DNA from: Candidatus Latescibacterota bacterium
GTDB taxonomy: Bacteria > Latescibacterota > UBA2968 > GCA-2709665
NCBI GenBank assembly: GCA_965219455.1
Contig: OZ244744.1
Coordinates: 1,984,001 to 2,048,000, forward strand
Reading direction: 5' to 3'
Length of the DNA: 64,000 bases
Both the position numbers and the translations under genes were made by a program. The notes beneath the pieces were generated by a model. That model saw only the letters and a list, made by a program, of their open reading frames with translations. It did not search any database and was not told where the DNA came from. How positions within the stretch are numbered: the stretch's first letter is position 1; every line of letters starts with the position of its first letter. Shown piece by piece: positions 1,684 to 60,981 of the stretch.

Positions 1684-4422
1684 TCAATCCCCGGAATCAC
1701 GCCGTCCAAATTGAGCCGCAAGGATGAGGAAATCACGAAACCCCACCTCGCCGTCGACGTTCAGGTCGAACCTGGCGTCCCATCCCGCCGTACCAGCGCG
1801 GGACCCGAACGCCCGCGCGAAAGCCACGAAGTCGCTGAAACCCACCGTACCGTTCCCGTCGAAGTCCCCCCGCAAACCAACGGGCGCCTCCTGGAAAGTC
1901 GGCAGCCAGGCCCCGTTCGTCAGGACGAATTCTCCCTCGCCTTCCGAGAAGTCGCGCAACCGACCGGACGCGTCGCGGTACCGAAGCATGTCCAGAACCC
2001 GGGCCCTGCGTCCCGCGGTTCCATCCAGCGTAATCACGACGGCCCGCCCGTCGGTCTCGAGCCCATCCACCGCGACCACCTCGTCCGTTCGATTGAAGCC
2101 CACGCGGGTACTGTCCGCAAACGTCACCAGCAGGAGGCGCGGCATGATCTCCAGCGCCGGACGCGTCGCCGCGGGGCCCAGGTACAACGCCGCCACAACC
2201 GGCGTGGCGGTCACCGGACCGGTCGTCAATGCGAGCTGTCCGATCCGGGGGTGGTAGTCCGGCCGAAGGATATTGTTCCAGACAGGCTCGTAGCGGTCAA
2301 TCCGTACGTCCATGCCAGCCGGCGTCAGTAGATTGATCAGCAGCGAGGCGCCTCCGTAGGAAGCCTCAAACCGCCCCTCGCCCGCCGACACTATCTCCGC
2401 GTCCTCATCGAAATGCAGCAGCCACGTGAACCGCCGCGGTCGTTCCGCCTCCAGGTGATCGGCAATCAAGACCCGCTGGCGGTCCACCATCAATATCTGG
2501 CGCGTAAAGCGCTTCAGACCCAACTGGGGCGGGTACGCCGATGCCGCTTCCCCCCGCACATAGGGAAACTGCGTGGAAGCGTACCCGATGTGCGCCCACC
2601 CCGGATACCAGCGCGGCCACCGCTCTCCGTCGCCGTACTGCCCCTGCCCGTCCACCAGAACCGTATTGTGGTTCGCCGTTTCCTTCTTCAGCGTATAGCC
2701 CGGGTCAATCACCAGTTCCTTCCCGCTGCCGTAAAGCACAAAGCTGTTCTGCGCGGGATGGTTGTGCCCCACACCGCCGATCCAGGGATACGCCTCGATC
2801 AGACGAGCCAGTGTGTGCCCGCCCAGCGGCCGAGCGCCAAGCGCGAACATTGTGGCCTCCGGCCGCCACGAGGTCCGTGCAAAGTACATCTCCACGTCCG
2901 GGTAATAGGCCAGCTTCGGCATCAGCTCGTCCAGCGTTCCGACCGCCGTGCCCATGTCCCCGGCCAGTGCCTTCAACGTCCACCAGTGGGTACTCTGCCT
3001 GCCCGCGTGAATCAACTCCGCAATACGAAACAGCCGGGCGTCGCCATTGCGCCCGGCCAGCCAGTGCAGCCGTTCCATCGAGGGTACAACTCCGGGCCGG
3101 AACGTATCTTCAATCGCCGCGCCCGAATGCAGATCGGGATAGACGTAATGGATCGGAAAATAGCCTGTCTTCCTCAGCCACGCGTCCGCATGGGCGATGG
3201 TCCGCCCCGTTGTATGCTCATACAGGTCGATCCATCGAAACAGCGACCCCACGGAGAAGTTCCAGTAGGCAGGCCCCTCGTGGAACCCCCCGTCCTCCGC
3301 AAAGGTCTTCAGCGTCCCCTGCAGGCGGTCCCAGCTCCAGGCCATCCACATCTCGGCCTCGGGGACCTCGCCGTAAAGTGCGGCGCCAGCCACGCCGATG
3401 GCGTAATTGTCGAACCAGTAATGGTTCTGCTGCACCGTGCGCGCCCAGTACATCCGCTCCATAAAGGACGCCTCGAACATGAGTCGGGCCTGGTACGCCA
3501 GCTTCTCCCGGATGATCCGCCGCTCCTCCTCCGTGAACCAGTGGTAGAGCCAGTCGTAGGCGACCGCGGTCCCGTGGATCATATAGGCCGCGTCCAGGTC
3601 CAGATCCGGCGTGCTGTGCGACCAGCCGTCCGGGAGCCATTTATCGTATGTACAGATCGTGAGAACGTGTCGCCGGATTGCCTCGAAACGCTCGGTCGCA
3701 TCAGGGGAATTTCCCAGCAGGCACGGGATCGCCTGGTTCTCGATGCGCCACGCCCACCCCGCGCGCTTTGGCGGACCCGAGTTGGGAGGCGGCGTGCCTC
3801 GCAACATCCCCTGGAGACGGTAGAGCCGCTGTCCGGCTGCGCTGCGCCGTGCGTTGCGCAAACGCTCGGCGTCCCACCGCGTCACAAACAGACGCGGGCG
3901 CTCTTCCGCCAGGTCGGGCCGGATAACCGATGCCGCATCGACCTGTGCCGTCAGATGCGTCAGCTTCAGGCGAGCCACGCTGACACCGGGCCGTTCCCGC
4001 AGCACAAGGCGTATGTTCGTTTTTCCCGGCACATCCAGTCGAAAACCCCGATACGCCTCCCCGTACGCGCCCTTGGGCAATACGATCGGCTGCGGCTGCC
4101 GCTCTCCGTTCACCTCCAGCCAGAACGAATCGGTTGACGTCGACGGGGCCGAGCAGAGAACGCTCAGGCGGTAGATCCCCGGCATCAGATCCGGGTTGAG
4201 TGTCAACGCGAAATCCGCCCCGAGCGTGCGAACCACCGTTCCCACCTCCCGCCGGACCAGGTCGAACCCCCCTGAAGCAACCTGTCTGAGCGCTTCACCC
4301 TCAGCTGAAAAGAGTACGTCTTCCTGGATCAGATCGCTCGTCGACGGATCGTCCGGCAGGGCAAACGCTGGGCTTTCCATCAAAAATGCAAAGAAAAGGA
4401 CCAAAAGGAAATAACGCAGCAT
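1684..4422 (-). CDS. Secreted heparinase II/III-like (DUF4962) lyase-fold protein with C-terminal dockerin/EF-hand-like duplicated repeat
   Basis: Signal peptide MLRYFLLVLFFAFLMESPAFA; RPRLF, QNHYW, DGGFHEGPAYW, GHNHPAQNSF, HNTVLVDGQGQ; C-terminal GDFDGNGTVGFSDF and DLNVDGEVGFRDF; start moved to ATG 4422. Confidence 0.8.
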   Translation of the reverse strand: MLRYFLLVLFFAFLMESPAFALPDDPSTSDLIQEDVLFSAEGEALRQVASGGFDLVRREVGTVVRTLGADFALTLNPDLMPGIYRLSVLCSAPSTSTDSFWLEVNGERQPQPIVLPKGAYGEAYRGFRLDVPGKTNIRLVLRERPGVSVARLKLTHLTAQVDAASVIRPDLAEERPRLFVTRWDAERLRNARRSAAGQRLYRLQGMLRGTPPPNSGPPKRAGWAWRIENQAIPCLLGNSPDATERFEAIRRHVLTICTYDKWLPDGWSHSTPDLDLDAAYMIHGTAVAYDWLYHWFTEEERRIIREKLAYQARLMFEASFMERMYWARTVQQNHYWFDNYAIGVAGAALYGEVPEAEMWMAWSWDRLQGTLKTFAEDGGFHEGPAYWNFSVGSLFRWIDLYEHTTGRTIAHADAWLRKTGYFPIHYVYPDLHSGAAIEDTFRPGVVPSMERLHWLAGRNGDARLFRIAELIHAGRQSTHWWTLKALAGDMGTAVGTLDELMPKLAYYPDVEMYFARTSWRPEATMFALGARPLGGHTLARLIEAYPWIGGVGHNHPAQNSFVLYGSGKELVIDPGYTLKKETANHNTVLVDGQGQYGDGERWPRWYPGWAHIGYASTQFPYVRGEAASAYPPQLGLKRFTRQILMVDRQRVLIADHLEAERPRRFTWLLHFDEDAEIVSAGEGRFEASYGGASLLINLLTPAGMDVRIDRYEPVWNNILRPDYHPRIGQLALTTGPVTATPVVAALYLGPAATRPALEIMPRLLLVTFADSTRVGFNRTDEVVAVDGLETDGRAVVITLDGTAGRRARVLDMLRYRDASGRLRDFSEGEGEFVLTNGAWLPTFQEAPVGLRGDFDGNGTVGFSDFVAFARAFGSRAGTAGWDARFDLNVDGEVGFRDFLILAAQFGRRDSGD

Positions 4423-4494
4423 ATATCCGGCTCCCCAATCACTCCCCGAAAATCCAGAGCCGACACGTCGCCTTCGTCCTGCCACCGAACGCTA

Positions 4495-7400
4495 TCACAA
4501 CGTGGAGAACGCCACAATCGAGCCGTCCTCACACCCCAGCACCAGCCGTCCCTCCGCGAAGGCCGAGGCGGTCACACCCGCAGGCAGCACTCCCAATAAC
4601 GCCGTCTCCCCGTCTCCACTCACCCGCAGAACGCGGCCGTCCACGCACACCACAGCGGCTGTACTGCCCATGCGGACGACCCGCGCCGCGCCAGGGGCTA
4701 CGTCCACCGTCCACATCGGCGCACCCCCCGGGCCAAAGCCGATTGCCGTCGGCCCTTCCGTAGCAGCAAAAAGGACCTTCTCTCCGGAACCGTCCAGGAG
4801 CGCCAGCCCCGCCGGCACCTCGCCCAGGCAGTGGCCCCATCGCCTCGCCTTCTCTGCAAAGCTGTGCACCCTCAGGTTCTCCTGCCGATTGACCGCGCAG
4901 GCCACCTCCACCAGCCCGTCGCCGTCCAGGTCCGCAATCAGCACATCCTTCACCTGCGACGTCCATCCCGCATTGTAAAAGGTATGCTTCTGCTGTCCGT
5001 CGACACCGATCACGCGACAGACGCTGCCGGACGACAGGATGTCGCACCCCCCTACAATCTCCTTTTTCCCGTCCCCGTCCAGATCGTACGTCTCAAAGGT
5101 CAGGAACGTTCCATGGTCCGTGCGGTACTCCCACCGCTCATTTCCCTCCGCGTTCACCAGGTGCAGCCGCATATTGCCGGGTGTCACAACCACCTCACCG
5201 CTGCCGTCGCCGTCCAGGTCTTCCACCCACACGCGTTTGATACTCGATTTGTACCAGGACCAGTAGTCCCAGTACTGGTTGCCGTATTCGGGGTGATACC
5301 GCCAGATCTCCTCGCGGGTGGCGGCATCCAGCGCGCGCACGAACGTGTCCTCGCATCCCAGAACGATCCGGGCGGGGTCCCCCTCGCACAGCACCCCGGT
5401 GTGGACCGTATTGACCGGACTACCCGTCTCAAGAGTCCACGCGCACGCCCCATCCAAACCGAAGGCCACCAGCGCGTCTCCCTCACACGCGGCCAGCACC
5501 ACGTCCCCTCCTGCAATATGCAGGGCATTGATTCGCCCTTTCCCCCGCGCGGTCCACGCGGGCAACGGGGTCTTTGAATCCGATTGCAACGGGGCAACCG
5601 CCTCCTGTCCGCCGGCCCCGTCGAAAAGAACATCCGGATCGGGAATGGCGCCGGCCCCGACGTTGAGCGTGTGAACGGCTCCGCCGTCCAGCTCGCGTTC
5701 GCCCGACGCCCCCTCCCCATCGCGCCATAGAACCGCCAGGTCTTCGGAGGCATCCACCGCAAGCCTGCCCGATGCATCCAATTCCACGCCGCACGGCCTG
5801 GAAAACTGAACCGATAGCCCGCCAACTTTCAACGCCGTGCAGTTCGCCGCAAAAACACCCGCCCGCCAGACCGCCAGCAGGTCACACACCGCGTGCAGGC
5901 CATCCGCCCGCACCACCCCCGTGCAAATCGCAAAAGTCGCTTCCGGTGCTTTCACCCGCACCCATCCCGACGCGTTGCACTGCGCCTCAACCCGGTCTCC
6001 AACCCGATCCCCGGACCGTGCGTACAACAGATTAACAAAACGCATTGCATCGCCCGCCCCCAACACGTCACTCCGGCTCTGATACAGCTCCGTGAGCAGC
6101 GTCCGGTCCGTTCTCAATTGCTCGCCGAGCTCAGGATCATAGCCCGACTTCCACGACGCCGTGGGGCCGTAGAACGCCTCCTGGGTGCGGCAGGCCTGTC
6201 CCGACAGATTCTGAACCACAAAATCGGTCCGGCTGCCCTTCCACTCACTCTGGTGGAAAATACATGCATGATCCGACAGCTCCGGCTGTCCCAGACTGAA
6301 CCAGCGGCAACTACCGCTGTAGGTTGCCCTGTCCCGCGCGACCAGGCGGTCCACCACCAGGAAAAAATCTCCCTTCTTCCAGAGCAGCATCCGCGTCCAG
6401 TCCATACCCACATAGTCCGGTAGCGTCGTGGCGGAGAACCCGAACGTACGCAGATCCGCCTTCCCGTCCATCCGGCAGTAGCTTGGAAGTTCCTCCCCCA
6501 ACCCGTTCCGCGTTACCGTCACCATATTGTGATACTTGGGTGCGGTAAAATAAAGCTGGTCCGCGGACAGCAGCAGAAACCGGTCGTCCTGCGTGAGTGT
6601 GAGAATGGCATTGGCGTCCTCGTAGGAATGCGACCCTCCGCCCGTGCCGTCCAGGATCAGATACTGTGACGTCTTCTCCCAGCCACTCCGCATTGTCAGA
6701 ATATCGAATGTCTTCCCATACGGCACGCCCGGAGGCCTGAGCGCAACCGCGCCGGGAGAATGCTTGGGAATATCGTAATACAGCCGGTCCAGCGGAAACA
6801 CGCGCGTTCCAACCTGATCGCCAGGCGGCGCCACCTCCACCCCCGCATCGTAGAGCTGTCGGCACGGCATCAGGCCGCCGGAGGGTGCAATCTCGGGCGC
6901 CATATTTTCCAGGGCATAGCGCAGCCCGGCATCCCGCAGATAGAAGGACACCTGGGCCAGGAACCAGTTCGGATACGACTTCACGTCTCCGTCTCCTATG
7001 GTAGCGGCAAACCCGTTGCTCGTACAGTTCCCCACTGCGCGGTCCGCTGCCAGGCGCGCCATTCCATTGTCGAAAAACACCGTATTCCCCGTCAGCAGGG
7101 CATAGGTCGCGAAATCCCCGATGCTCTGGTTCCACCCGTGGGCGTTGTCGTCGCAGATCTGTTTGGAACAATAGGCGCCGATACGGAACAGCTCGTCAAC
7201 AAGCGCACGCCATTCCCGAGCTTCGGGAAGACGATAGTGCCGCTCAAAATAGATCGACCCGAACAGCACGCCCAGCGCGCACCGCGTCTGGTGGTTCTGG
7301 CGCGGCAGCTCCGACCCGGCCGAATGGCGCAGGCCTCTATTCTCCGCCCCTTCGGGTGACACCAGCACATTGTACAGAAAACGGACGATCTTCAGCCGGT

Positions 7401-8166
7401 CCGCCTCGGAAAACACATCACAAGTCTCCACGATCGGCCACATCATCATCACCGGCCAGAATCCCAGGTGAAGCTGGCTTTCTGGCGTGTGCAGCACCGG
7501 CGTCTCCATCAATGCCATCAGACCCTGTTTCAGCCCCTCCGCGATTCTTGTGTCTCCGCTTCGCAAATATGCCCACGCCGCCGATGGAACGTGCGACAGT
7601 CCCCCGTATCCCGTAAAATCGTAGACCCACCCTTCGGGGGTGGGACCGACGCTTGCCCAGCGCGCCACGTCCTCCACCTCCATTGGTCCGGACGACCCGT
7701 AGACCACTTCGTAGAGTCCGGGGATGCCCGCTTCAGCTCCGGCAATAACGCCCTCCAGGCGTGCGACAGCCGCATCCAGACCCACGTCGTCCGCGGCTCC
7801 CACCACGAGCGCGTTACGTCCCGTCCCCCACGGGTCCCAAACCGTGGTCAGCACGTACCCCCCTCGGCCCGGGTAGGCCCCGTCCACGAATGTCAACCAT
7901 CGATAGTAGAGGTACTCGATCCCCCGGTTGTCTCCCAGGCTGCCCACGAGAATCGCGTGGCGTTCCGGCCGGATATCCCACGCGGCGTACGCCGAATCGC
8001 CCGCCACGACGACCTCCGAACCGCACGCCCGCGCCAACGCCCCTGCGATGCGCAGGGCAGCGGCCTGCTGAGCGTCTCCGCCACCGGCCACCACCTCCAC
8101 AGCCCGCGCGTCGAACGGAATCTCCAGCGACATCTGCTTCACTTCACCAATCCTGTGCCCGCCCAT
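4495..8166 (-). CDS. Large heparinase II/III-like lyase-fold protein with C-terminal PQQ/FG-GAP beta-propeller
   Basis: RQNHQT, MRSGW, HSYEDAN, HNMVTV; C-terminal DLDGDG repeats; paralog of 8212-11949; start may be 8133. Confidence 0.7.
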   Translation of the reverse strand: MGGHRIGEVKQMSLEIPFDARAVEVVAGGGDAQQAAALRIAGALARACGSEVVVAGDSAYAAWDIRPERHAILVGSLGDNRGIEYLYYRWLTFVDGAYPGRGGYVLTTVWDPWGTGRNALVVGAADDVGLDAAVARLEGVIAGAEAGIPGLYEVVYGSSGPMEVEDVARWASVGPTPEGWVYDFTGYGGLSHVPSAAWAYLRSGDTRIAEGLKQGLMALMETPVLHTPESQLHLGFWPVMMMWPIVETCDVFSEADRLKIVRFLYNVLVSPEGAENRGLRHSAGSELPRQNHQTRCALGVLFGSIYFERHYRLPEAREWRALVDELFRIGAYCSKQICDDNAHGWNQSIGDFATYALLTGNTVFFDNGMARLAADRAVGNCTSNGFAATIGDGDVKSYPNWFLAQVSFYLRDAGLRYALENMAPEIAPSGGLMPCRQLYDAGVEVAPPGDQVGTRVFPLDRLYYDIPKHSPGAVALRPPGVPYGKTFDILTMRSGWEKTSQYLILDGTGGGSHSYEDANAILTLTQDDRFLLLSADQLYFTAPKYHNMVTVTRNGLGEELPSYCRMDGKADLRTFGFSATTLPDYVGMDWTRMLLWKKGDFFLVVDRLVARDRATYSGSCRWFSLGQPELSDHACIFHQSEWKGSRTDFVVQNLSGQACRTQEAFYGPTASWKSGYDPELGEQLRTDRTLLTELYQSRSDVLGAGDAMRFVNLLYARSGDRVGDRVEAQCNASGWVRVKAPEATFAICTGVVRADGLHAVCDLLAVWRAGVFAANCTALKVGGLSVQFSRPCGVELDASGRLAVDASEDLAVLWRDGEGASGERELDGGAVHTLNVGAGAIPDPDVLFDGAGGQEAVAPLQSDSKTPLPAWTARGKGRINALHIAGGDVVLAACEGDALVAFGLDGACAWTLETGSPVNTVHTGVLCEGDPARIVLGCEDTFVRALDAATREEIWRYHPEYGNQYWDYWSWYKSSIKRVWVEDLDGDGSGEVVVTPGNMRLHLVNAEGNERWEYRTDHGTFLTFETYDLDGDGKKEIVGGCDILSSGSVCRVIGVDGQQKHTFYNAGWTSQVKDVLIADLDGDGLVEVACAVNRQENLRVHSFAEKARRWGHCLGEVPAGLALLDGSGEKVLFAATEGPTAIGFGPGGAPMWTVDVAPGAARVVRMGSTAAVVCVDGRVLRVSGDGETALLGVLPAGVTASAFAEGRLVLGCEDGSIVAFSTL

Positions 8167-8211
8167 CTTTGCACCTCTCGCAGATATAACCGACTGCCTT
8201 CCCCAAAACCC

Positions 8212-11200
8212 TCACACGCCCAGCACCGAAAGCGTCCCATCCGACCCGCCAAGGATCAGGTGGCCCCTGCCGTCCGCAGCCAGGACGTGAACCGCGCCAC
8301 CCGCCCGGTGGCTGGCAATAGGCGTGCCCTCTCCGTCCAGGACCCACACGGTCCCGTCGTCACACCCCGCGACGATCTTCGCACCCCCGTTCAGATCACC
8401 GACCATCACCTGCAGCACGGGGGCGCCCAGGTTACGTCGCCACCGCTCCGTACCGTGCTCATCCAGCAAATAGAGATAAAAACAGTCAGACCCGACCACG
8501 ACCTCCGGCCTGCCGTCCCCATCCACGTCGACGGTGCAAACCGCGTTGACTTCCTCTCCAACCCGTTGCTTCCAGAGTGTCTCCAATCGACCGCCTGCCA
8601 GTCTCAATGCATAGACGTTCGACCGGTTCGTCCCGCACACAATCAGGTGATCCGCCCCCTGTACCCACACGTCGCACGCAGGCATCATCGACGCCCACCC
8701 GTCCAGCCCGTCGCTTGCATAATGGCCGCCGTCGGCGTCCAGCACGTAGCAGGACCCCCCGCAGGTGATCCGGCCCGGGCCGCCGATCACCTCCTGCCGC
8801 CCGTCTCCATTGATATCAGCAACACGTAGCGGCGCAAAAATCCCGTAAATCATAAAACTCCACCGCTCGTTTCCATCCTCGTCAAAACAGTGGAGCTTCC
8901 GGTCCGAGACCGCCGCCAGGATATCTGTCCGTCCGTCTCCACGCAGGTCGGCCGCCGTCACGAATTCCACCGCGGAATTCCGGGCGTACCGGTCCCACGT
9001 TCCTCTGTAAATCTCAAAGGCGTGTGACCACCGCACGCCGCCGCCTTCCTCCAGCAGATAGAGGCGCCGGTCGTCCGCGCCCGCAATCACACAACGCCGG
9101 CCGTCAAGTTCCACCGCACACACCGAAAGAACGCTCCCCTCCGCCTGGAAGGACCAGGCCGGCTTTCCGTTTTCATCCAGAGCCGCCACCCGTCCATCCT
9201 CCGTACCCAGGACCACCCCGTCCGCGCCGGCAGCGGCGCAGCGCACACCCGAACCGGCATCGTATGTCCAAATCCTGCGCAACCCGGGAACAGACGAAGC
9301 CTGCGCACGTGCCGGAGGACTCGCGTCCCAACCCCGCAGGTCCGCAACCCGATCCAGCGACAATGCACCCGCCCCGAGCCCCTGCGTTTTCACCTTTTGC
9401 CGGCCGGCCGCAACGCGTAACCTTTCTCCGCACAGCGTGATCTCAGCGGGTTCCGGCGCCACGACAACGCCGTCACCGGACTCCAGATCGAACTCGATCG
9501 AAACAGGAAGCTCGCTTTCAAAGATCCCGCCGGGCGCACACAGTAACGTCCCGTTGCACAGCGCAAACCACCCGTCGCCGGCCGCAAAGATGCCGGCGCG
9601 GCCGGAAAGAGGCCCAACCTCAAACGCGCCGGTCCCGCTCCCCGTCCCCACCACCATCCGGCCTTCCGACCCCTCAACCACCACGGCCGAATCGCCCACC
9701 CGACGCATCCGGTCGTCCACGGGCTTATGCGCATTCGACGCGTAGAACAGGTTGATAAACGTGTGCCGGTCTCCGACCGCCATCTCCCGGTTGGCCGACT
9801 CGCGCAGGATATTCACATAATCATCCGCATAGGGATATGCATCCCACCAGTGGCCGAAATTCTCCCAGTCCCGCTCCAGCGACAACCGGCCTCCACCCAC
9901 GCTCTGCAAAACAAACCGATCTTCCCGGCCGCTGTCCGGTTCTTTCTGCACCACCTCCAGCGTCCCGTCGTTCAAAGCGGGTGTCCCCAATGTGCGCCAG
10001 TGACACTGCAGCGCGAACGCACCTCCCTTTGTCGCTTCAACCTCATCCACCACCACAAAATAACGCCCCCTGCGCCACACCACGTTCCGAACCCACAACG
10101 CGCCCCAATCCCCTGTCACGGACGTCCGGCTCATTCCCACGTGACCCAGATCCGCCACACCCTCCAGCCGGCACAGTGCAGGTACTTCCCACGCCTCTCC
10201 ATCCCGGACCGCCGTCACGCCATTGTGGTGCTTAAGCGTCGGCCCCTCCGTGTACGACGCATCCACCAGGAAAATCCGATCGTTCGCCGAAAATTCCGGT
10301 ATGGTATTCCCGTCTTCGTGGCTGTGGTTGCCGTAAAAGATCCCGTGCAGCATCAGGTACTGGTCCTCCCGGCCAAACCCCTCCCGGAAACAGACCGTAT
10401 CGAACGCGTCTTCCCTTTGCAGGTTCAGCGGCTTCACCTCGCGCTCCCTCGCCTGCGGGTCTTCCGCGAAATCGTAGAACCCACCGGCGACCTCCAGCAC
10501 CTGCACCCCGGCCATCCCATCGGGGACCTCGGGCGCCAGGCCGTCGCAGAAATACTTCTCAAAACTCCGCACCAGCAACGGATCGTTCACGCTCTCGTAG
10601 CGCTCTCCCGGCGGCTGCGGCCGAAAATAGTCCGACGGCCTGTCGAACCGTTTGCCGAGCAGGAATGCCGCGCGTCCGTCCTGCAGCACATGCCCCGCTT
10701 TGACCAAAAAACTCGTCGGGTATCCTTCCATTGGAGCGCCCGTATCTCCAAACGCGGGCAGCGCACCCCGGTTGTTGCAGTAAAGCACAGCCTGGTCCAG
10801 AGACCGCTTGCAGTTTCCGTTGTCGATATACGTGGTATCCCCGCTTGCCAGCGAATAGGTCAGTATGTGGTCCAACGTCATCCACTGATAGGCGTTGGCA
10901 TCCTCAATCGGCTTGAACGACACCGCCTGCCCCTTGAACACGTCCGCGGACGCATCCATCCACTCCTTCGCATCCTCAAAACCATAGTGCGTTGAAAAAT
11001 ACCGACCCCCGAACCACGCCGCCAGCGCCACCAGCGTCTGGTGGTTCTGGCGGATCATCCGGTGTCCCACACCCTGACGGAAGAATTGGGTATACGCCCC
11101 CTCCGTGGAATCCATGATCCACAGCAGATATTGCGTGATCTTCAGCCGGTCCTCGTCCGAGAACACCGGGCTCTCCTCGATCAGGTCCCAGACCACCGCC

Positions 11201-11949
11201 AGCCACCAGACGTGAAAGTGCGCCATCACCCCGTGCTCACCCATCCTCAGATGCGCGTCCGCGATTTCACGAACGGCCGCGGCATACGCGTCGTGCCCGG
11301 TCCGGTGATACATCAACCCGTACGCGCCCGCCTCCGAAATCAGCTCAAAGCCCGCGCCTGATTCGGAAGCGTGCGGTGCGGTGGCACGCGCGATGAAGTC
11401 CTCCCGCCGCTCCTGCAACCACCCCTCCGGCGGACAGCCGAAAGCGTCGAACCCGGAACCGAGCCTGATGTCCATCAACCATCCCACTCTGAGCGTCTTT
11501 TCATCGGGCACTAACCCCAAAAAACGCGACGTCACACGCTCCAGCCCGTCGGCGTCGCTGGCCCCGAGCAGTACCACGTTCTTTCCGTTCCCCAGTGGAT
11601 TGTGCAGGGTCCGTAGCGCGTACCCGCCCCTGCCGGGATAACAGCGGTCTTCCACCGCCCACCACTGGTAATACAGCCACCGGATAAAGGCGTTGTCAGC
11701 CATATTTCCCAGCGCCACGACGTGCCCCTCCAGCAGCATCCCGGCCGCCGCCTCTCCCGCCCGGACCACCTCCAGCCGCGCGCCCGTCGCCGCCTCGATC
11801 CGCTCGACGATCCGTCCCGCCAACCGCTCGTGCGCTCCATCCCCGCCGATGACGATCTTCGCCTGGGGCTCGCCGTTGACCACCAGTACCGTCTCCAGAC
11901 ACATGTCTTTCAACACACCCACCTTCAGGCCCACCGATCGGTTCTTCAC
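8212..11949 (-). CDS. Large heparinase II/III-like lyase-fold protein with C-terminal PQQ/FG-GAP beta-propeller
   Basis: RQNHQT, EDANAYQW, PAFGD, HSHEDGN, HNGVT; DINGDG/DVDGDG repeats; GTG 11949 follows GAGGAGG. Confidence 0.72.
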   Translation of the reverse strand: MKNRSVGLKVGVLKDMCLETVLVVNGEPQAKIVIGGDGAHERLAGRIVERIEAATGARLEVVRAGEAAAGMLLEGHVVALGNMADNAFIRWLYYQWWAVEDRCYPGRGGYALRTLHNPLGNGKNVVLLGASDADGLERVTSRFLGLVPDEKTLRVGWLMDIRLGSGFDAFGCPPEGWLQERREDFIARATAPHASESGAGFELISEAGAYGLMYHRTGHDAYAAAVREIADAHLRMGEHGVMAHFHVWWLAVVWDLIEESPVFSDEDRLKITQYLLWIMDSTEGAYTQFFRQGVGHRMIRQNHQTLVALAAWFGGRYFSTHYGFEDAKEWMDASADVFKGQAVSFKPIEDANAYQWMTLDHILTYSLASGDTTYIDNGNCKRSLDQAVLYCNNRGALPAFGDTGAPMEGYPTSFLVKAGHVLQDGRAAFLLGKRFDRPSDYFRPQPPGERYESVNDPLLVRSFEKYFCDGLAPEVPDGMAGVQVLEVAGGFYDFAEDPQAREREVKPLNLQREDAFDTVCFREGFGREDQYLMLHGIFYGNHSHEDGNTIPEFSANDRIFLVDASYTEGPTLKHHNGVTAVRDGEAWEVPALCRLEGVADLGHVGMSRTSVTGDWGALWVRNVVWRRGRYFVVVDEVEATKGGAFALQCHWRTLGTPALNDGTLEVVQKEPDSGREDRFVLQSVGGGRLSLERDWENFGHWWDAYPYADDYVNILRESANREMAVGDRHTFINLFYASNAHKPVDDRMRRVGDSAVVVEGSEGRMVVGTGSGTGAFEVGPLSGRAGIFAAGDGWFALCNGTLLCAPGGIFESELPVSIEFDLESGDGVVVAPEPAEITLCGERLRVAAGRQKVKTQGLGAGALSLDRVADLRGWDASPPARAQASSVPGLRRIWTYDAGSGVRCAAAGADGVVLGTEDGRVAALDENGKPAWSFQAEGSVLSVCAVELDGRRCVIAGADDRRLYLLEEGGGVRWSHAFEIYRGTWDRYARNSAVEFVTAADLRGDGRTDILAAVSDRKLHCFDEDGNERWSFMIYGIFAPLRVADINGDGRQEVIGGPGRITCGGSCYVLDADGGHYASDGLDGWASMMPACDVWVQGADHLIVCGTNRSNVYALRLAGGRLETLWKQRVGEEVNAVCTVDVDGDGRPEVVVGSDCFYLYLLDEHGTERWRRNLGAPVLQVMVGDLNGGAKIVAGCDDGTVWVLDGEGTPIASHRAGGAVHVLAADGRGHLILGGSDGTLSVLGV

Positions 11950-12135
11950 GGCCGCCTCCTCGTTAAAAACAGCCTCCAGGAATTGTTTCGCCAACACGGG
12001 TCACAGACACCTGCCCGACGGTCCCGCAATACAAACGTGTGCTCCCCCTTCCTTCGGCGGAGCCAGCCTTCACAGGGCGTCCGGCCGGCTGCAGACTTAT
12101 GGCAGGCGATGTCGTCCTGTGGACCATCCATCAAT

Positions 12136-14490
12136 TTAACGCGATTCACCAGGTCCCGTTACGATGCCCTCATCCCGAAGTTCGTACCCCCGGCCCTGCA
12201 CGACCAGCAGAGCCAGCCCGTTCGAGTGAAGGCCGTCATACGCCACGCCATCTCGACCGCCCACCAGCACAAGGTCCTCCCCGATCCGCGCGACTTCCGT
12301 TTCACCCGATCGCTCGGTCTGCACCTTCGCGCGGTCAAGAGACCCATGCCCCGGGCACAACACAACCCCCAGGTTCCGGCGGCTTACCAGACCGGAGGGG
12401 GTAAACCTCAGATGGTACTGCTGGTGCCACTGTGATTCGTTCTTGCCCGTACGCATGGGCGGGGGGTCCCACCCCTCGCTCAGGGAGAAGAACGCGTTGT
12501 TGTGGTACATGAAATGCGCTTCGAGTGAACTCCCCTCCCGCTCCAGCAGGAAGGTTCTTTCCTGCTCGTCCACCGCGAAACGATTCCAGGAGTGGATATT
12601 CCACTGGAGCGCCGAATCAATGCCCGGAACCGCGGCAAACTCGTCGATCATCACAAAACAGCTCTGCGCCCTCAGGAAGAATACGTGCCGCCGGCACCGT
12701 TCCGCGCGGTCGCTGTAGCTGGCATCCGCGTTTCCGGCAAAGTAGACAAGCCGTTCGTCCTCGTATGGATTCTCGATGCTTCCCAGTGAATCGTGCGATC
12801 GCATGATCTGCGACGCGTCCGAAAGCGTGACGCAGTTGTGCGACTTCGTGTGCCATACCCAATGCGTGTGATGATCCGAACCGTACCCAATGTAATAACC
12901 GCTGGGCATCGCCATTACCTTGCCACCGGCGTGCAGAATGAAGTCGTTGTTGTTCGCGTGGGAATGGCTGATGGCGCCGAGCGGAGAAGAGCGAAAGATC
13001 AGCGCAACATCCCGTGCGGCATCGTTCAGGTTCGTCCGGACCGCGGCCCATCCGGCGGCCGGGAACACACGCAGGATCGATCCGTCCGCGTCCGAAGGCG
13101 GCCGCTTCTTTTCGGGCTCGGCCAGATAGAGTTGCGACAGAACACCAGAGCTTCTCCGTTCCGCCGGCGTTTGCATTTCCTCCGCCTCGGCCCGGAACGC
13201 CTTCACGTATTCCGTGAACTCATCCGTTCCCGTCTCCCGTCCGATCAGATCCACCAGATCCGCATTTGATCTCCAGGTGCCCGCCCACCGCTCCGTATGG
13301 TCGCCGAATCCCATCCACTCCGCGTAGGGCGGCAGACAGTACTGGCGCCACCGGGCGTGGCTCTTCCAGAAGGGACGCCGGTAGAGATCCACCCCCATAC
13401 CGCGCTTCAGCGTCGTGGCGAACATGGACATGATCGTCACGTAAGCCAAACCGTACGAGGGTCCTTCCGCCCATGCACCGTCGTCACCCGACCAGATCGG
13501 CCAGATGCCGCACAGCACCGGCCTCAGCCACTCCAGCCAGGACTGCGCTTCGGGAATGTGATCGTGAAACACCAGCGCAATGTGCGCCAGGAACACAATC
13601 TCACGACCGGCGTGCGAGTCGAAGCGCGTTACCCCGTAGGATCCCCTGTTGTGCATATGGTCGAACGTAATCTGTCCCCGCTGCCGGAATTGTTCCACGA
13701 CGGCGTCGCGTTCCTTGTCGGCAAAACGGTCCCACACCCAGTCGCACGCGTTCGAACCGTTCCAGATCACCGACATGTGGGCTTCGTCGTTGTGGGCAAG
13801 GTGGCTGGACCCCTCCGGGTCCCAACGGGATATGGACGCCAACCTCCGGCACGCGGCGCGGGCATATCGATCCTCCCCGCCCACGAGATAGGCCAACGCC
13901 AGGGTCTCGGCGCCTTTGACAAACCGCCGTGAGTTCCACATCACCGGCGCCCAGGTCTCGTGGTATGCCTGATAGTTCTCGCTTCGGTCCGGGAGAAAGG
14001 GCGGCTCGTCGATCTCGTGCGGCTCGCCGAGCACGGCCTCGGCGTGCCTCCGCAGACCTTCCCACGCGGAAGCCCGCTCGCGGTGCGCCGCCGCACGCAG
14101 CGCCGGCACCTCGTCCGGGCGGAGGTAGACGCGCGGGTGGTCCGCCGGGAATCGCTTCAGCCACTCGCTTGCCGGCGGCACCTCCACCACAGCGGCCTCG
14201 CGCCCGATTTCAAATGCGAAGACCTCGGACGTTGCGGCGGGCGCCGCGGACCACCGCCAGAAATACCTCCCGGGCTCAAATGCCGTTTCAGGAAGGAATA
14301 GGGGATCCTGCAAACCCCCCTTGTCCAGGCAGATGTTCTCAAAGCTCGAATCTCGCGCCACCTGCAGGCGATAGCCCGATGCCGAGTCCACGGGCAGCCA
14401 CGCAAAAACGGGGGGGTTGGTCCCCGGCCTGCCGTCTGCCCTGGGCTGGCGCGGATCTCTGTGCGGGTGCGGATGTCTGTGCTCTTTCAT
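12136..14490 (-). CDS. DUF4962/heparinase II/III family lyase-fold protein
   Basis: TNPPVFAW N-terminus, HPRVY, DGAWAEGPSY, GFGD, SHSHANNNDF, SHNCVT. Confidence 0.85.
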   Translation of the reverse strand: MKEHRHPHPHRDPRQPRADGRPGTNPPVFAWLPVDSASGYRLQVARDSSFENICLDKGGLQDPLFLPETAFEPGRYFWRWSAAPAATSEVFAFEIGREAAVVEVPPASEWLKRFPADHPRVYLRPDEVPALRAAAHRERASAWEGLRRHAEAVLGEPHEIDEPPFLPDRSENYQAYHETWAPVMWNSRRFVKGAETLALAYLVGGEDRYARAACRRLASISRWDPEGSSHLAHNDEAHMSVIWNGSNACDWVWDRFADKERDAVVEQFRQRGQITFDHMHNRGSYGVTRFDSHAGREIVFLAHIALVFHDHIPEAQSWLEWLRPVLCGIWPIWSGDDGAWAEGPSYGLAYVTIMSMFATTLKRGMGVDLYRRPFWKSHARWRQYCLPPYAEWMGFGDHTERWAGTWRSNADLVDLIGRETGTDEFTEYVKAFRAEAEEMQTPAERRSSGVLSQLYLAEPEKKRPPSDADGSILRVFPAAGWAAVRTNLNDAARDVALIFRSSPLGAISHSHANNNDFILHAGGKVMAMPSGYYIGYGSDHHTHWVWHTKSHNCVTLSDASQIMRSHDSLGSIENPYEDERLVYFAGNADASYSDRAERCRRHVFFLRAQSCFVMIDEFAAVPGIDSALQWNIHSWNRFAVDEQERTFLLEREGSSLEAHFMYHNNAFFSLSEGWDPPPMRTGKNESQWHQQYHLRFTPSGLVSRRNLGVVLCPGHGSLDRAKVQTERSGETEVARIGEDLVLVGGRDGVAYDGLHSNGLALLVVQGRGYELRDEGIVTGPGESR

Positions 14491-20169: not shown

Positions 20170-21329
20170 TTTTTTAGAGATGCTTTCAGCCGATTCAGTC
20201 TTGCCCTGGCGTCGACAACCCACGCCTGCTGTGCGGAATCCCGCCGGGCGAGCTTCAGATAAGCCCGCCAGTGGACAATGGCGCTCCCCACGTTGCCCTC
20301 CCGCTCGTGAATAACGCCCAGATTGTAGTGCCCGTCGGCAAAATCCGGCGCGAGACCGATCGCGCGCTCGTAGGCCGCAATCGCCGCCGGGTTGTCGCCG
20401 AGATTGAAATACGCGTTGGCCAGGCCCGCGTAGCGCCTGGCATGCTGGTACCCGGCCACCGACCGTGTATACGCCCCCTGATGCGCGTCCACAACCGACA
20501 CGACCGAATCCGGCGGCGCGCTTTCCGGTTTCAGCCGGATGGCCTCCCGGTACGAAAGCACCGCCTCCGCATACCTTCTCTGCCGGGAATATACATTGCC
20601 CAGGTTATAGTGCGCCTCAGCCAGGTCCGGTTTCAGCCGAATGGCCTCCAGTTGCCGGGATACGGCCCCGTCAATATCCCCGCTGAGCATATCGACAAGG
20701 CCCAGGTTCGCGTGTGCCTCGGCGTAGTCCGGCATCAGCGCGACGGCCTCCCGATACGCCGCGCGCGCCTCCTCAACTTTTCCCCGATCCAGAAACTGGG
20801 TGCCCGTCGCAACCTGCTGCGCGGCGGACTGACAACGGGAGACCGCCCGCAGGAAAAGCGCCTTCATCGGATCGACGGAAAAGGGCGGACCCGCCCTGGC
20901 GGCCCGCCGGTAGGCTGCGAGCGCGTCCCCGTACCCGCGCTGTCTCGCATCCATCAGGCCCAGAAGGTAGTGCGCCGCGGCGAAATCCGGAGCGGCCACG
21001 AGGGCTTTACGCAGGCGCGCGACCGTGAGGCCGAGCGCCGCCTGCGTCAGATTCCATTCCGCCTCGCTCTCGCCCCGGCTCCCGGCCACGAGGCCGGCGG
21101 CCTCGGCAAATGGCGGATACGCGTCGGGTGTCGCTCCCGCCCCCAATCCGGATGCCAGCGGCGGGATCAGACCAATCGCCTCCGTCAACCGGCTGGCCAA
21201 GCTATCGTCGAAGGCGACCCGTTCCGTGCTCGCGAGGAGAGGTTGCGCAAACATCACGCAGACCACCAGCGTACACAGCGCCCGGCCCACCGCGCCGACG
21301 CACAGGTTATTGGTGTACGTCCCGCACAC
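20166..21329 (-). CDS. Tetratricopeptide repeat protein
   Basis: PDYAEAHANLG, PDLAEAHYNLG, PDFADGHYNLG repeats; start uncertain. Confidence 0.85.
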   Translation of the reverse strand: MCGTYTNNLCVGAVGRALCTLVVCVMFAQPLLASTERVAFDDSLASRLTEAIGLIPPLASGLGAGATPDAYPPFAEAAGLVAGSRGESEAEWNLTQAALGLTVARLRKALVAAPDFAAAHYLLGLMDARQRGYGDALAAYRRAARAGPPFSVDPMKALFLRAVSRCQSAAQQVATGTQFLDRGKVEEARAAYREAVALMPDYAEAHANLGLVDMLSGDIDGAVSRQLEAIRLKPDLAEAHYNLGNVYSRQRRYAEAVLSYREAIRLKPESAPPDSVVSVVDAHQGAYTRSVAGYQHARRYAGLANAYFNLGDNPAAIAAYERAIGLAPDFADGHYNLGVIHEREGNVGSAIVHWRAYLKLARRDSAQQAWVVDARARLNRLKASLKK

Positions 21330-22164
21330 AGCGAAACCCGATGAAATTGCCCTTCTGGTCGGGATAAAATCTGAACCGGGCCGACGTTTTCAGATAATGG
21401 GGCAGGTGGTGCCAGGAACTGCCTCTCACCACACGGAACGTCCCGGTCGCCGGGCCGGATGGATCTTCCCTGGGACTTCGAGTGTAGTAAGTATTGTCGT
21501 ACCAGTCGTTGCACCACTCCCAGGCATTGCCCGCCATGTCAAGTAACCCGTACGGGCTCGCGCCCCTGGGCCTGGAACCCACCGGCATAGTTTGACAGAA
21601 CTCCCCGGGCACCGGACCGGCAGACGGATTCGCCCAGTTGGTACGCCCGCACGTCCCGCCCAGATCCATGATCGCGTAGTCTCTTCCGGGCGCCTCTTCA
21701 CCCCACGGGTATGTCCGTCCGTCCGTCCCCCGTGCCGCCTTTTCCCACTGCGCCTCGGTGGGCAGGCTTCCGCCCCGCCACCTGCAGTAGGCATCCGCCT
21801 CCGGCCACATCACCCCAACAGTCGGCTGCCGGTCTTTGGAAAACAACGGATTCCGGGTTTCCGGCGGCAATGAAACCCTCGTCGAACGGGCATAGGCGCG
21901 GAATTGAGCGTTCGTCACCTCGTATTTGTCAATATAAAACGCATTCAGATGGACGACGCGCGCGGGGCCTTCCGGGTCGAATCCACGATTCGTGCCCATC
22001 AGGAAATCGCCCGCGGTTACGACCAGCATCGTATCCACCGTGCCGGCCGGCGTCCGGTCCAGGAAGACCCCCTCCGGGAGGTCGTCCAGCAGGGACCCGC
22101 CGCTGCATCCGGCGCACACCAGGACGGCAACCCAGGCAGCCCGCAACCGCCCGCAACCGCGCAT
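21307..22164 (-). CDS. FGE-sulfatase (SUMF1-fold) lipoprotein
   Basis: CAGC lipobox-like; FLMG, YEVTN, LPTEAQWEKAARG, DMAGNAWEW, IGFRC. Confidence 0.85.
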   Translation of the reverse strand: MRGCGRLRAAWVAVLVCAGCSGGSLLDDLPEGVFLDRTPAGTVDTMLVVTAGDFLMGTNRGFDPEGPARVVHLNAFYIDKYEVTNAQFRAYARSTRVSLPPETRNPLFSKDRQPTVGVMWPEADAYCRWRGGSLPTEAQWEKAARGTDGRTYPWGEEAPGRDYAIMDLGGTCGRTNWANPSAGPVPGEFCQTMPVGSRPRGASPYGLLDMAGNAWEWCNDWYDNTYYTRSPREDPSGPATGTFRVVRGSSWHHLPHYLKTSARFRFYPDQKGNFIGFRCVRDVHQ

Positions 22165-22166
22165 TC

Positions 22167-24239: not shown

Positions 24240-24276
24240 AAGCTTATCGCTCCTTCCCGGAATTGCCTCACGCCGG

Positions 24277-56055: not shown

Positions 56056-56067
56056 GGAAGGTCTGAA

Positions 56068-60979: not shown

Positions 60980-60981
60980 AC

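What the first reader, a model, noticed from the sequence alone, without database searches (positions are those of the whole stretch)
6622..10890. Tandem lyase paralogs with reciprocally swapped His/Tyr at the putative catalytic positions
Seen: the two ~1200-aa paralogs align locally without gaps. Site 1 is KPIEDANA-Y-QW (Y370) versus KQICDDNA-H-GW (H343). Site 2 is GNHS-H-EDGN (H560) versus GSHS-Y-EDAN (Y515). Numbering follows the ORF track, and both keep RQNHQT. Known: in the heparinase II / PL15 / PL17 / dermatan-sulfate-epimerase fold, the Tyr after the acidic motif and the His of HxHxD act on opposite faces of uronate C5. Inference: the double swap creates a mirror-image active site. The pair may handle opposite C5 epimers, use syn versus anti elimination, or act as epimerase plus lyase. 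I know of no description of such a swapped pair.
Basis: partly seen in the sequence, partly recalled or inferred. Interest (0 to 1): 0.78.

Follow-up and report, generated by a model that had tools for sequence, protein, structure and literature searches.

The report
Lyase-fold paralog with rebuilt active site
Two neighbouring genes encode uncharacterised relatives of heparinase-type sugar lyases; one keeps the usual catalytic tyrosines and metal site, while the other belongs to an old, conserved branch that swapped the catalytic tyrosine for histidine and dismantled the metal site.

Summary
P0002 (8212-11997, -) has Y370 and H560; P0001 (4495-8166, -) has H343 and Y515; both keep RQNHQT. Both fold with high confidence as a toroid plus beta-sandwich, matching PL39, PL15, PL12, PL35, PL21, PL17 lyases and DS-epimerase 1. 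They belong to a large unannotated family: 1436 representative clusters.

Of 878 aligned columns, these two sites best separate one clade from the rest. The clade has 37 of 160 rows, SH-like support 99, and SH-aLRT 98 with the trait columns removed. No row has Tyr at both sites, and one has His at both.

Site 1 is the catalytic Tyr. Site 2 is the second His of HxH, a metal ligand in DS-epi1, PL35 and PL17. The first, catalytic His is kept in both paralogs. Two more positions changed with them: the metal Asp (D579 to S534) and the partner Tyr (Y582 to Q537).

So this is a one-time, four-position remodelling: double-Tyr to single His, and a metal site replaced by Tyr plus Ser/Thr. It is not a mirror-image site. 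No model coordinates were available, so geometry is untested. New variant of a known kind; moderate interest.

The parts
8212..11997 (-). P0002, 1261 aa. Canonical (YH-type) member: N-terminal alpha/beta domain, (alpha/alpha)6 toroid, beta-sandwich and C-terminal FG-GAP/PQQ-like beta-propeller. No room upstream for a signal peptide.
   Evidence: propeller Pfam hits from about residue 907; Hepar_II_III_C only E 0.023. (AF2 of residues 1-895, pLDDT 93.2). (Foldseek: PL39 6jp4 E 4.4e-19, PL15, PL12, PL35, PL21, DS-epi1, PL17).
4495..8166 (-). P0001, 1223 aa. Remodelled (HY-type) paralog with the same domain order, 45 nt downstream of P0002.
   Evidence: (AF2 of residues 1-858, pLDDT 93.7). (Foldseek: HepIII 5jmd E 6.9e-16; PL39 6jp4 TM 0.56/0.62). 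(member of the HY clade).
11035..11052 (-). P0002 RQNHQT (316-321). N318/H319 are the Asn/His pair that neutralises the uronate carboxylate. H319 is equivalent to His311 of Atu3025 and His205 of DS-epi1.
   Evidence: H319 is found in 99 of 108 YH rows and 26 of 26 HY/HF rows.
7285..7302 (-). P0001 RQNHQT (289-294). N291/H292 are retained.
10888..10890 (-). P0002 Y370 (TAT). Site 1, the catalytic Tyr, equivalent to Tyr365 of Atu3025 and Tyr261 of DS-epi1.
   Evidence: (direct profile alignment to 3a0o).. Tyr in 117 of 123 rows outside the HY clade.
7138..7140 (-). P0001 H343 (CAC). Site 1, His in place of the catalytic Tyr.
   Evidence: His in 28 of 37 clade rows and in 1 of 123 rows outside.
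10324..10326 (-). P0002 H558. First His of HxH, equivalent to the catalytic or carboxylate-contacting His (His531 of Atu3025, His450 of DS-epi1).
   Evidence: Present in 108 of 108 YH rows and 26 of 26 HY/HF rows.
6628..6630 (-). P0001 H513. First His of HxH, retained.
10318..10320 (-). P0002 H560 (CAC). Site 2, second His of HxH, equivalent to the metal ligands His452 (DS-epi1) and His403 (GAGase II).
   Evidence: PMC8006597 and PMC12088678 passages. His in 112 of 123 rows outside the clade.
6622..6624 (-). P0001 Y515 (TAC). Site 2, Tyr in place of the metal-ligand His.
   Evidence: Tyr in 29 of 37 and Phe in 4 of 37 clade rows; Tyr in 1 of 123 outside.
10252..10263 (-). P0002 D579-A-S-Y582. 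D579 is the metal-ligand acid, equivalent to Glu470 of DS-epi1 and Asp421 of GAGase II. Y582 is the second Tyr of the double-Tyr motif, equivalent to Tyr473 of DS-epi1.
   Evidence: In 108 YH rows, 579 is D in 97 and E in 8, and 582 is Y in 103.
6556..6567 (-). P0001 S534-A-D-Q537. Both the metal-ligand acid and the partner Tyr are lost.
   Evidence: in the clade, 579 is Thr or Ser in 22 of the 35 rows that have a residue there. AF2 pLDDT for block 531-540 is 79, against 93-97 for its neighbours.
10222..10227 (-). P0002 H591-N592 (HN motif). Probable third metal ligand; which of the two residues is uncertain.
   Evidence: Spacing is like Asn481 of DS-epi1. This is an inference.
6526..6531 (-). 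P0001 H546-N547 (HN motif), retained.
12136..14490 (-). P0057, 784 aa. Canonical DUF4962 + Hepar_II_III_C protein, first gene of the same-strand run.
   Evidence: Synteny is conserved in L001-L003.
1684..4485 (-). P0058, 933 aa. Canonical DUF4962 + Hepar_II_III_C protein with a hydrophobic N-terminus and a dockerin-like C-terminus. Last gene of the run, 9 nt after P0001.
   Evidence: (3a0o E 1.5e-15, 6hzn E 1.2e-12, dockerin chains E 2.9e-8).

Best explanation
P0002 and P0001 are neighbouring paralogs, in the genome of a Latescibacterota-like bacterium. They belong to a large, unannotated family that has the uronate lyase/epimerase fold and a fused C-terminal beta-propeller.

P0002 keeps the full canonical set:
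- the Asn-His neutraliser (N318/H319);
- the catalytic Tyr (Y370) with its partner Tyr (Y582);
- the first His of HxH (H558);
- a divalent-metal site made of H560, D579 and H591 or N592.

P0001 belongs to one ancient clade in which two coupled modules were rebuilt together.
- The double-Tyr module became a single His (H343; the partner Tyr became Q537).
- The metal module was dismantled. The ligand His became Tyr (Y515) and the ligand Asp became Ser/Thr (S534).

I infer that the Tyr515 ring fills the former metal pocket, with its hydroxyl hydrogen-bonded to the Ser/Thr. That would give a metal-free brace for the HxH loop. His343 would take over proton transfer at uronate C5.

The result would be a metal-independent enzyme of altered specificity or chemistry, working in the same pathway as its canonical neighbours.

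**Shown:** the fold, the residue equivalences, the clade restriction and the four-position co-change.
**Inferred:** the Tyr-Ser/Thr brace, the catalytic role of His343, and uronate as the substrate.
For: - **Fold.**. Sequence-level links: profile against heparinase III, E 1.5e-4; hhalign of 160 family rows against P0058, E 1.5e-4.
- **Residue mapping.** Three routes agree: as the bridge.
- **Metal role of the second His and of the acid about 18 residues later.** DS-epi1 uses His452/Glu470/Asn481. GAGase II uses His403/Asp421/His457, and alanine mutants are inactive. PL17 AlyA3 uses His431/Asp449/His480; the metal lies 11 A from catalytic Tyr466 at the domain interface and is read as structural.
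- **Double-Tyr motif.** Tyr261/Tyr473 in DS-epi1, with Tyr473 three residues after the ligand Glu470, matching D579/Y582.
- **Coupling outside the clade (123 rows).** When 560 is not His, 579 is not Asp/Glu in 5 of 11 rows, against 3 of 112 when it is His (Fisher p 1e-4). When 370 is not Tyr, 582 is not Tyr in 6 of 6 rows, against 10 of 117 (p 2e-6). Related rows are not independent, so these p-values overstate the case.
- **Clade.** 37 of 160 rows, SH-like 99. 35 of 79 rows, SH-aLRT 98, with columns 370, 560, 579 and 582 removed.
- **State inside the clade.** Site 1 is His in 28 of 37 rows; site 2 is Tyr in 29 and Phe in 4 of 37. Position 579 is Thr or Ser in 22 of the 35 rows that have a residue there.
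- **Retained residues.** Among the 26 HY/HF rows: N318 26, H319 26, H558 26, D562 26, N564 25, R538 26, R637 26, D651 26. Newly fixed in the clade of 37: H at 260 in 34, R at 402 in 31, E at 568 in 26. This points to a changed but working site.
- **Genomes.** 123 family ORFs in 67 loci: HY 58, YH 45, YY 0.
Against: - No atomic coordinates of the models were available. The position of Tyr515 relative to His343, to S534 and to the substrate cleft is untested.
- The metal site of P0002 is inferred from homology only. Canonical relatives differ here: Atu3025 has Gln and P0057 has Pro at the ligand-acid position, and heparinase III has Gln at the second His.
- The third-ligand assignment (H591 or N592) is uncertain.
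- The change arose once, so the four positions cannot be shown to depend on each other inside the clade. The tool found only 1-2 independent pairs.
- Tyr at site 2 is as well kept as His at site 1 (29 against 28 of 37). That also fits a catalytic Tyr.
- No substrate is known for any member of the family. Neither protein has a signal peptide, and the neighbourhood gives no clear substrate clue.
Confidence: 0.6

Rival explanations
1. Tyr515 is a relocated catalytic acid/base that approaches C5 from the beta-sandwich side, and His343 acts from the toroid side. The geometry is inverted relative to P0002. The pair would then handle opposite C5 epimers, use syn versus anti elimination, or act as epimerase plus lyase.
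For: - His at site 1 with Tyr or Phe at site 2 makes up 34 of 200 aligned members. YY occurs in 0 and HH in 1.
- The two columns are the top two discriminators out of 878.
- Tyr is kept in 29 of 37 clade rows.
- In these folds the metal site is described as close to the active site, on the same loop as the carboxylate-contacting His (PMC8006597 passages).
- P0001 orthologs sit next to a YH-type gene in 5 of 5 loci.
Against: - Site 2 corresponds to a metal ligand, not to the catalytic His, and that catalytic His is kept in both paralogs.
- In PL17 the metal is 11 A from the catalytic Tyr.
- Phe replaces the Tyr in 4 of 37 clade rows, including the otherwise conserved P0050 and P0060.
- The ligand Asp and the partner Tyr changed as well. 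That is expected for the loss of two modules, not for an inversion.
- Most HY-type genes lie in arrays of 3-4 HY-type genes with no YH neighbour (L052-L067).
Confidence: 0.15
2. HY-type proteins are catalytically dead. Having lost the catalytic Tyr pair and the metal, they serve as glycan-binding or scaffolding partners of the active YH-type and canonical enzymes encoded beside them.
For: - The canonical proton-transfer Tyr, its partner Tyr and two metal ligands are all missing.
- Alanine mutants of the equivalent metal ligands inactivate GAGase II and DS-epi1.
- Some clade members are further degraded. In P0038, P0090, P0136 and P0195 the first His of HxH is Lys.
Against: - Among the 26 HY/HF rows, the carboxylate-neutralising Asn-His, the first His of HxH, D562, N564, R538, R637 and D651 are kept in 25 or 26 each.
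- His at site 1 is itself conserved, in 28 of 37 rows that are under 50% identical to each other.
- New clade-specific residues are fixed.
- A binding-only protein could still conserve many of these residues, so this reading is not excluded.
Confidence: 0.2

Closest known systems
Dermatan sulfate epimerase 1 (human DS-epi1, PDB 6HZN) and heparinase II (PL21, 2FUQ)
   Same: Toroid plus beta-sandwich fold: Foldseek E 5e-14 and 4e-13 for 6hzn, about 5e-13 for 2fuq. P0002 carries the same motif set: NH-His, catalytic Tyr, HxH with the second His on the metal, an acidic ligand about 18-19 residues later, and a partner Tyr 3 residues after that ligand.
   Different: Sequence identity is about 11-12%. 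This family adds an N-terminal alpha/beta domain and a C-terminal beta-propeller. P0001 lacks both Tyr residues and two metal ligands. HepII ligand numbers are recalled; I found no text to confirm them.
PL39 alginate lyase Dp0100 catalytic domain (6JP4)
   Same: Best overall structural match: E 4.4e-19 with TM 0.52/0.60 for P0002, and E 8.3e-16 with TM 0.56/0.62 for P0001. Its listed catalytic residues are of the same type: Tyr239, His405, Asn186/His187 (PMC12088678 table).
   Different: 12-14% identity. No sequence-level hit from the family profile. Substrate equivalence is untested.
PL15 oligo-alginate lyase Atu3025 (3A0O/3AFL)
   Same: The only solved relative aligned residue by residue across all motifs (E 5.9e-22; the three canonical neighbours in that profile contribute to the score). 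His311, Tyr365 and His531 fall on H319, Y370 and H558. I recall that Atu3025 is a cytoplasmic exo-lyase. That would fit the lack of a signal peptide here.
   Different: Atu3025 has Gln at the ligand-acid position and no propeller.
PL17 oligo-alginate lyases Alg17c and AlyA3 (4NEI, 7BJT)
   Same: Same fold. A His/Asp/His metal site sits at the domain interface, with the same +18 spacing from the ligand His to the Asp.
   Different: The catalytic base Tyr in PL17 lies 17 residues after the ligand Asp, not 3. There is no propeller.
Canonical DUF4962 + Hepar_II_III_C proteins in the same window (P0057, P0058, and 31529-33700)
   Same: Same superfamily and same operon-like run. Motifs align column by column.
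   Different: They reach the Pfam thresholds. P0001 and P0002 do not (Hepar_II_III_C E 0.023 in P0002, nothing in P0001). Identity to P0002 is 16-18%.

Membership tests
Heparinase II/III-like lyase/epimerase fold (PL12, PL15, PL17, PL21, PL35, PL39, DS-epimerase) | (alpha/alpha)6 toroid followed by an antiparallel beta-sandwich | tested here: met
   AF2 models have pLDDT 93.2 and 93.7 and pTM 0.93. The top 30 or more Foldseek PDB hits for both models are all from these families, with E 4e-19 to 1e-12.
Heparinase II/III-like lyase/epimerase fold | Significant match to the Pfam models Hepar_II_III_C or DUF4962 | tested here: not met
   P0002 matches Hepar_II_III_C at E 0.023, 14.7 bits, against a cut-off of 24; P0001 has no match. 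Homology is still supported by profiles: heparinase III E 1.5e-4 and hhalign against P0058 E 1.5e-4.
Heparinase II/III-like lyase/epimerase fold | Asn/His carboxylate neutraliser on the toroid (NH motif) | tested here: met
   N318/H319 and N291/H292. Aligned to His311 of Atu3025 and, through P0058, to the NH motif of DS-epi1.
Heparinase II/III-like lyase/epimerase fold | Catalytic Tyr about 50-55 residues after the NH motif | tested here: inconclusive
   Met in P0002: Y370 aligns to Tyr365 of Atu3025. Not met in P0001: H343.
Heparinase II/III-like lyase/epimerase fold | First His of the HxH loop on the beta-sandwich | tested here: met
   H558 and H513. Present in all 134 YH, HY and HF rows counted. 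Aligned to His531 of Atu3025.
Metal-dependent subgroup (PL17, PL21, PL35, DS-epi1) | Metal triad: second His of HxH, an Asp/Glu about 18 residues later, and a third His/Asn | tested here: inconclusive
   By sequence, P0002 has H560, D579 and H591/N592, while P0001 has Y515, S534 and H546/N547. Actual metal binding is not testable with these tools.
Polysaccharide lyase (any CAZy PL family) | Demonstrated beta-elimination on a uronate-containing glycan, or sequence membership in a CAZy PL family | not testable with these tools
   No CAZy library was available. NCBIfam gives no name for the catalytic part. No characterised homolog was found.
FG-GAP / PQQ-like beta-propeller | Repeated blades matching propeller models | tested here: met
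   Beta-prop_CGLA E 2.6e-24 and FG-GAP_3 E 4e-12 in P0002; FG-GAP_3 E 2.6e-8 in P0001; designed propellers, E 9e-30.

The most novel reading that the evidence does not exclude
The HY clade is a new mechanistic class within the heparinase II/III-like fold. It would be a metal-independent uronate lyase or C5-epimerase in which a His on the toroid replaces the Tyr-Tyr proton relay. The Tyr that took over the former metal-ligand position would take part in catalysis, for example by tuning His343 or the HxH loop. Canonical and remodelled paralogs encoded side by side would then process different C5 epimers, or different linkages, of one glycan.
Probability: 0.15. Interest if true: 0.75.

Novelty: new variant of a known kind. 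Interest (0 to 1): 0.5.

Why it matters
- **An unannotated family.** It is large: 1436 representative clusters at E <= 1e-3 and 741 at E <= 1e-30. It is expanded in tandem arrays in Latescibacterota and also occurs in Lentisphaerae, Armatimonadetes, Planctomycetota, Verrucomicrobia and Kiritimatiellia MAGs. Pfam and NCBIfam do not cover its catalytic part.
- **A natural experiment.** One old clade has replaced the residue regarded as the universal proton shuttle of this fold and has removed the metal site, yet it stays conserved. Assaying a canonical and a remodelled member side by side would show whether the Tyr and the metal are really indispensable for uronate C5 chemistry. It could also reveal a metal-independent lyase or epimerase.
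- **An annotation point.** The second His of HxH should not be read as the catalytic one.

Tried and rejected
- **Single-sequence searches against solved structures.** These found only propeller matches.
- **Four-sequence profile against the PDB.** It found nothing. An 18-sequence profile reached heparinase III, but only over the distal beta-sandwich, not the motifs.
- **First hhalign against P0057.** It was weak (E 5.5e-4, probability 30%) and misaligned the toroid. I therefore relied on P0058 and on the combined alignment A8.
- **Test for repeated, independent co-variation of the two sites.** It had no power. There were only 1-2 independent pairs because the change arose once. I give the clade result instead and do not claim co-evolution.
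- **Literature check of the heparinase II zinc ligands.** It returned nothing relevant, so those residue numbers remain recalled.
- **Neighbourhood of an HY-type array, L063.** It showed PhyH, a beta-helix/PKD protein and DUF6785/DUF6784 proteins, which give no substrate clue.
- **Dimer prediction for P0001 with P0002.** Not run. The catalytic parts alone exceed the tool's 1000-residue limit, and I make no binding claim.
- **Supplements.** None were read. ESI figures of PMC8006597 and Figure S1 of PMC8600288 may show the ligand alignments directly.

Full report
**1.

The region carries two long ORFs on the minus strand: P0002 (8212-11997, 1261 aa) and P0001 (4495-8166, 1223 aa), 45 nt apart. 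BLASTP aligns them over their full length at 28% identity, E 5e-111.

| Site | P0002 | P0001 |
|---|---|---|
| Site 1 | Y370 (KPIEDANAYQW) | H343 (KQICDDNAHGW) |
| Site 2 | H560 (GNHSHEDGN) | Y515 (GSHSYEDAN) |
| Shared motif | RQNHQT, 316-321 | RQNHQT, 289-294 |

**2. What the proteins are**

Pfam recognises only the C-terminal FG-GAP/PQQ-like propeller. The catalytic part falls below threshold: Hepar_II_III_C at E 0.023 in P0002, and nothing in P0001. NCBIfam gives no name.

AlphaFold2 models of the N-terminal 895 and 858 residues were built on alignments of 81 and 92 sequences. Both are confident, with pLDDT 93.2 and 93.7 and pTM 0.93.

Foldseek against the PDB returns only toroid plus beta-sandwich uronate enzymes at the top, with E 4e-19 to 1e-12:
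- PL39 Dp0100 (best match, TM up to 0.62);
- PL15 exoHep and Atu3025;
- PL12 heparinase III;
- PL35 GAGases;
- PL21 heparinase II;
- human DS-epimerase 1;
- PL17, PL33 and PL40.

Profiles also link the family to this superfamily by sequence: heparinase III at E 1.5e-4, and the canonical neighbour P0058 at E 1.5e-4 by hhalign.

The two genes sit inside a same-strand run of four superfamily genes: P0057, P0002, P0001, P0058. The outer two are ordinary DUF4962 + Hepar_II_III_C proteins. That order is kept in three related genomes (L001-L003). Neither P0001 nor P0002 has room for a signal peptide, because each stop-to-stop frame begins just upstream of the start codon.

**3. The family is large and unannotated**

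- A four-sequence profile of the catalytic part found 1436 representative clusters (50% identity) at E <= 1e-3, and 741 at E <= 1e-30. I saw the best 150.
- The source names attached to relatives are "hypothetical protein" or "VCBS repeat-containing protein", from Gemmatimonadota- or Latescibacteria-labelled MAGs.
- In species-representative genomes, 67 loci were recovered. Most are from Candidatus Latescibacterota. Others are from Lentisphaerae, Armatimonadetes, Planctomycetota, Verrucomicrobia, Kiritimatiellia and Zipacnadia MAGs.
- Several genomes carry many copies in tandem arrays.

**4. The two sites across homologs**

In 200 aligned members, site1/site2 is YH in 138, HY in 32, HF in 2, HH in 1 and YY in 0. 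The remaining 27 carry other combinations.

I removed 39 close relatives of the window proteins and one 300-aa fragment, leaving 160 rows: YH 108, HY 24, other 28.
- On a FastTree of these rows, with a few columns around each of the two sites left out, every HY row falls in one clade of 37 rows. That clade holds 24 HY rows, 13 variants and no YH row, with SH-like support 99.
- An IQ-TREE quick search used 79 rows that I chose: 35 clade rows (the two longest branches dropped) and 44 others. It used 539 columns, with columns 370, 560, 579 and 582 and their immediate neighbours removed. The clade again forms one side of a branch, SH-aLRT 98.

Ranked by how well they separate this clade from the other 123 rows, columns 370 and 560 come first and second of 878, at 0.71 each. 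Column 579 is third at 0.40.

But the change happened essentially once. The tree gives 2 changes per site and only 1-2 independent pairs. This is therefore a clade signature, not repeated co-evolution.

In the 67 genome loci, 123 family ORFs split into HY 58, YH 45, a third type with Phe at site 1 in 14, and 6 others. None is YY.

**5. What the two sites correspond to**

Three alignments agree:
- hhalign of the 160-row family profile against P0058;
- a MAFFT alignment of 18 propeller-less members with the three canonical window proteins;
- the profile of that alignment against PDB sequences (Atu3025 E 5.9e-22, helped by the canonical rows).

P0058 in turn aligns to Atu3025 and DS-epi1. The resulting equivalences are:

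| P0002 | P0001 | Equivalent in solved enzymes |
|---|---|---|
| H319 | H292 | His311 (Atu3025), His205 (DS-epi1) |
| Y370 | H343 | Tyr365 (Atu3025), Tyr261 (DS-epi1) |
| H558 | H513 | His531 (Atu3025), His450 (DS-epi1) |
| H560 | Y515 | His452 (DS-epi1) |
| D579 | S534 | Glu470 (DS-epi1) |
| Y582 | Q537 | Tyr473 (DS-epi1) |

What I read in the literature (passages only in each case):
- **PMC8006597.** His452, Glu470 and Asn481 bind Mn2+. His450 sits on the same loop and contacts the carboxylate. His205, Tyr261 and Tyr473 form a "His/double-Tyr" catalytic motif, which the paper also finds in heparinase II and Atu3025.
- **PMC12088678.** In PL35 GAGase II, His403, Asp405, Asp421 and His457 surround Mn2+, and their alanine mutants are inactive. 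Its table lists the first His as the catalytic one in PL12, PL15, PL17, PL21 and PL39.
- **PMC8600288.** In PL17 AlyA3, His431, Asp449 and His480 hold a metal at the domain interface, 11 A from catalytic Tyr466. The authors read this as structural.

Site 1 is therefore the catalytic Tyr. Site 2 is a metal ligand, next to a catalytic His that both paralogs keep.

**6. The change involves at least four positions in two modules**

| Position (P0002 numbering) | 108 YH rows | HY clade |
|---|---|---|
| 579 | Asp 97, Glu 8 | Thr or Ser in 22 of 35 rows with a residue there |
| 582 | Tyr 103 | Variable |

Outside the clade (123 rows), the pairs are coupled in scattered lineages:
- Loss of His560 goes with loss of the acid at 579: 5 of 11 rows, against 3 of 112 (Fisher p 1e-4).
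- Loss of Tyr370 always goes with loss of Tyr582: 6 of 6 rows, against 10 of 117 (p 2e-6).
- Related rows are not independent, so these p-values are indicative only.

This supports reading 560/579 as one unit (the metal site) and 370/582 as another (the double Tyr). In the HY clade both units changed.

The clade still keeps most of the site, and it fixed new residues of its own:
- Among the 26 HY/HF rows, N318, H319, H558, D562, R538, R637 and D651 are each kept in 26 and N564 in 25.
- In the clade of 37, H at 260 is fixed in 34, R at 402 in 31 and E at 568 in 26.

**7. Most likely mechanism**

P0002 is a canonical, probably metal-bearing uronate lyase or epimerase of unknown substrate. P0001 is a remodelled paralog.
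- His343 replaces the Tyr-Tyr relay as the proton-transfer residue.
- Tyr515, with Ser/Thr at 534, replaces the His-metal-Asp bridge that holds the HxH loop.

Two observations fit a packing and hydrogen-bond role for this Tyr better than acid/base catalysis. Hydroxyl residues are preferred at 579, and Phe is tolerated at site 2 in 4 of 37 rows, including the well-conserved P0050 and P0060. These steps are inferred. I could not obtain model coordinates, so no distances were measured.

**8. Pairing in genomes**

P0001 orthologs lie directly after a YH-type gene in 5 of 5 loci (L001-L005). In the two more distant genomes, that neighbour is only 29-30% identical to P0002.

Most other HY-type genes lie in arrays of three or four HY-type genes without a YH neighbour (L052-L067). 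A fixed YH/HY partnership is therefore not a general rule.

**9. Novelty**

Full-text searches found no description of a Tyr-to-His variant of this fold, nor of this toroid-plus-propeller family. The library lacks most subscription journals, and I had no CAZy data, so this is absence in what I could search.

I rate the finding a new variant of a known kind. It is of real interest to carbohydrate-enzyme specialists, but it is not the mirror-image site first proposed.

Noticed in passing
window 31529-33700 (+): A third canonical-looking heparinase II/III-like protein (Hepar_II_III_C E 2.3e-6). In the alignment it has Pro at the catalytic-Tyr column, Pro at the ligand-acid column, and FKN in place of the HN motif. 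It is another member with a non-canonical site.
   Followed up: partly
L011-L021, L026, L034, L036, L037 (for example L013:6200-9949): A third paralog type lies directly upstream of YH-type genes in 14 loci. Its N-terminal domain and toroid are about 30% identical to P0002, with RH for NH and Phe at site 1. The propeller is present, but the beta-sandwich part is too diverged to align.
   Followed up: partly
L052-L067: Tandem arrays of three or four HY-type genes recur in Latescibacterota and 'Gemmatimonadota'-labelled MAGs. Each array position has its own signature at columns 579, 582 and 591: FGY, -RH, -RH, QSM.
   Followed up: partly
window 1684-4485 (-): The C-terminus of P0058 matches dockerin modules of cellulosomal proteins (PDB 2y3n_B, E 2.9e-8), and its N-terminus is hydrophobic. 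It is the only gene of the four-gene run that looks secreted.
   Followed up: no
window 21307-23252 (-): Two adjacent FGE-sulfatase (formylglycine-generating enzyme-like) genes whose ORFs overlap. No sulfatase gene was seen among the ORFs I scanned.
   Followed up: no
window 23259-29965 (-): A PorV-like protein, an 831-aa protein with no Pfam match, and a TonB-dependent receptor with a CarboxypepD_reg domain lie upstream of the lyase-fold genes. This suggests an uptake locus.
   Followed up: no
window 34453-35328 and 36188-37753 (+): Two genes with the aminoglycoside 3-N-acetyltransferase (Antibiotic_NAT) domain, the second fused to about 290 extra residues.
   Followed up: no
window 40873-42354 (+) and 60001-64000: A DDE transposase gene (DDE_Tnp_1_4) lies at the first position. 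Separately, GC falls to 0.52 in the last 4 kb, against about 0.60 elsewhere.
   Followed up: no
window 54243-55892 (+): A Glu/Leu/Phe/Val dehydrogenase fused to an N-terminal response-regulator receiver domain. It lies next to a hybrid histidine kinase (55969-59340).
   Followed up: no
P0001 and P0002, residues about 30-180: An N-terminal alpha/beta domain precedes the toroid and is conserved across the family (YPGxGGY motif). A GH115 alpha-glucuronidase appears as a weak Foldseek hit for the P0001 model (4zmh_B, E 2.5e-5, TM 0.14). Which part of the model it matches is not known.
   Followed up: no
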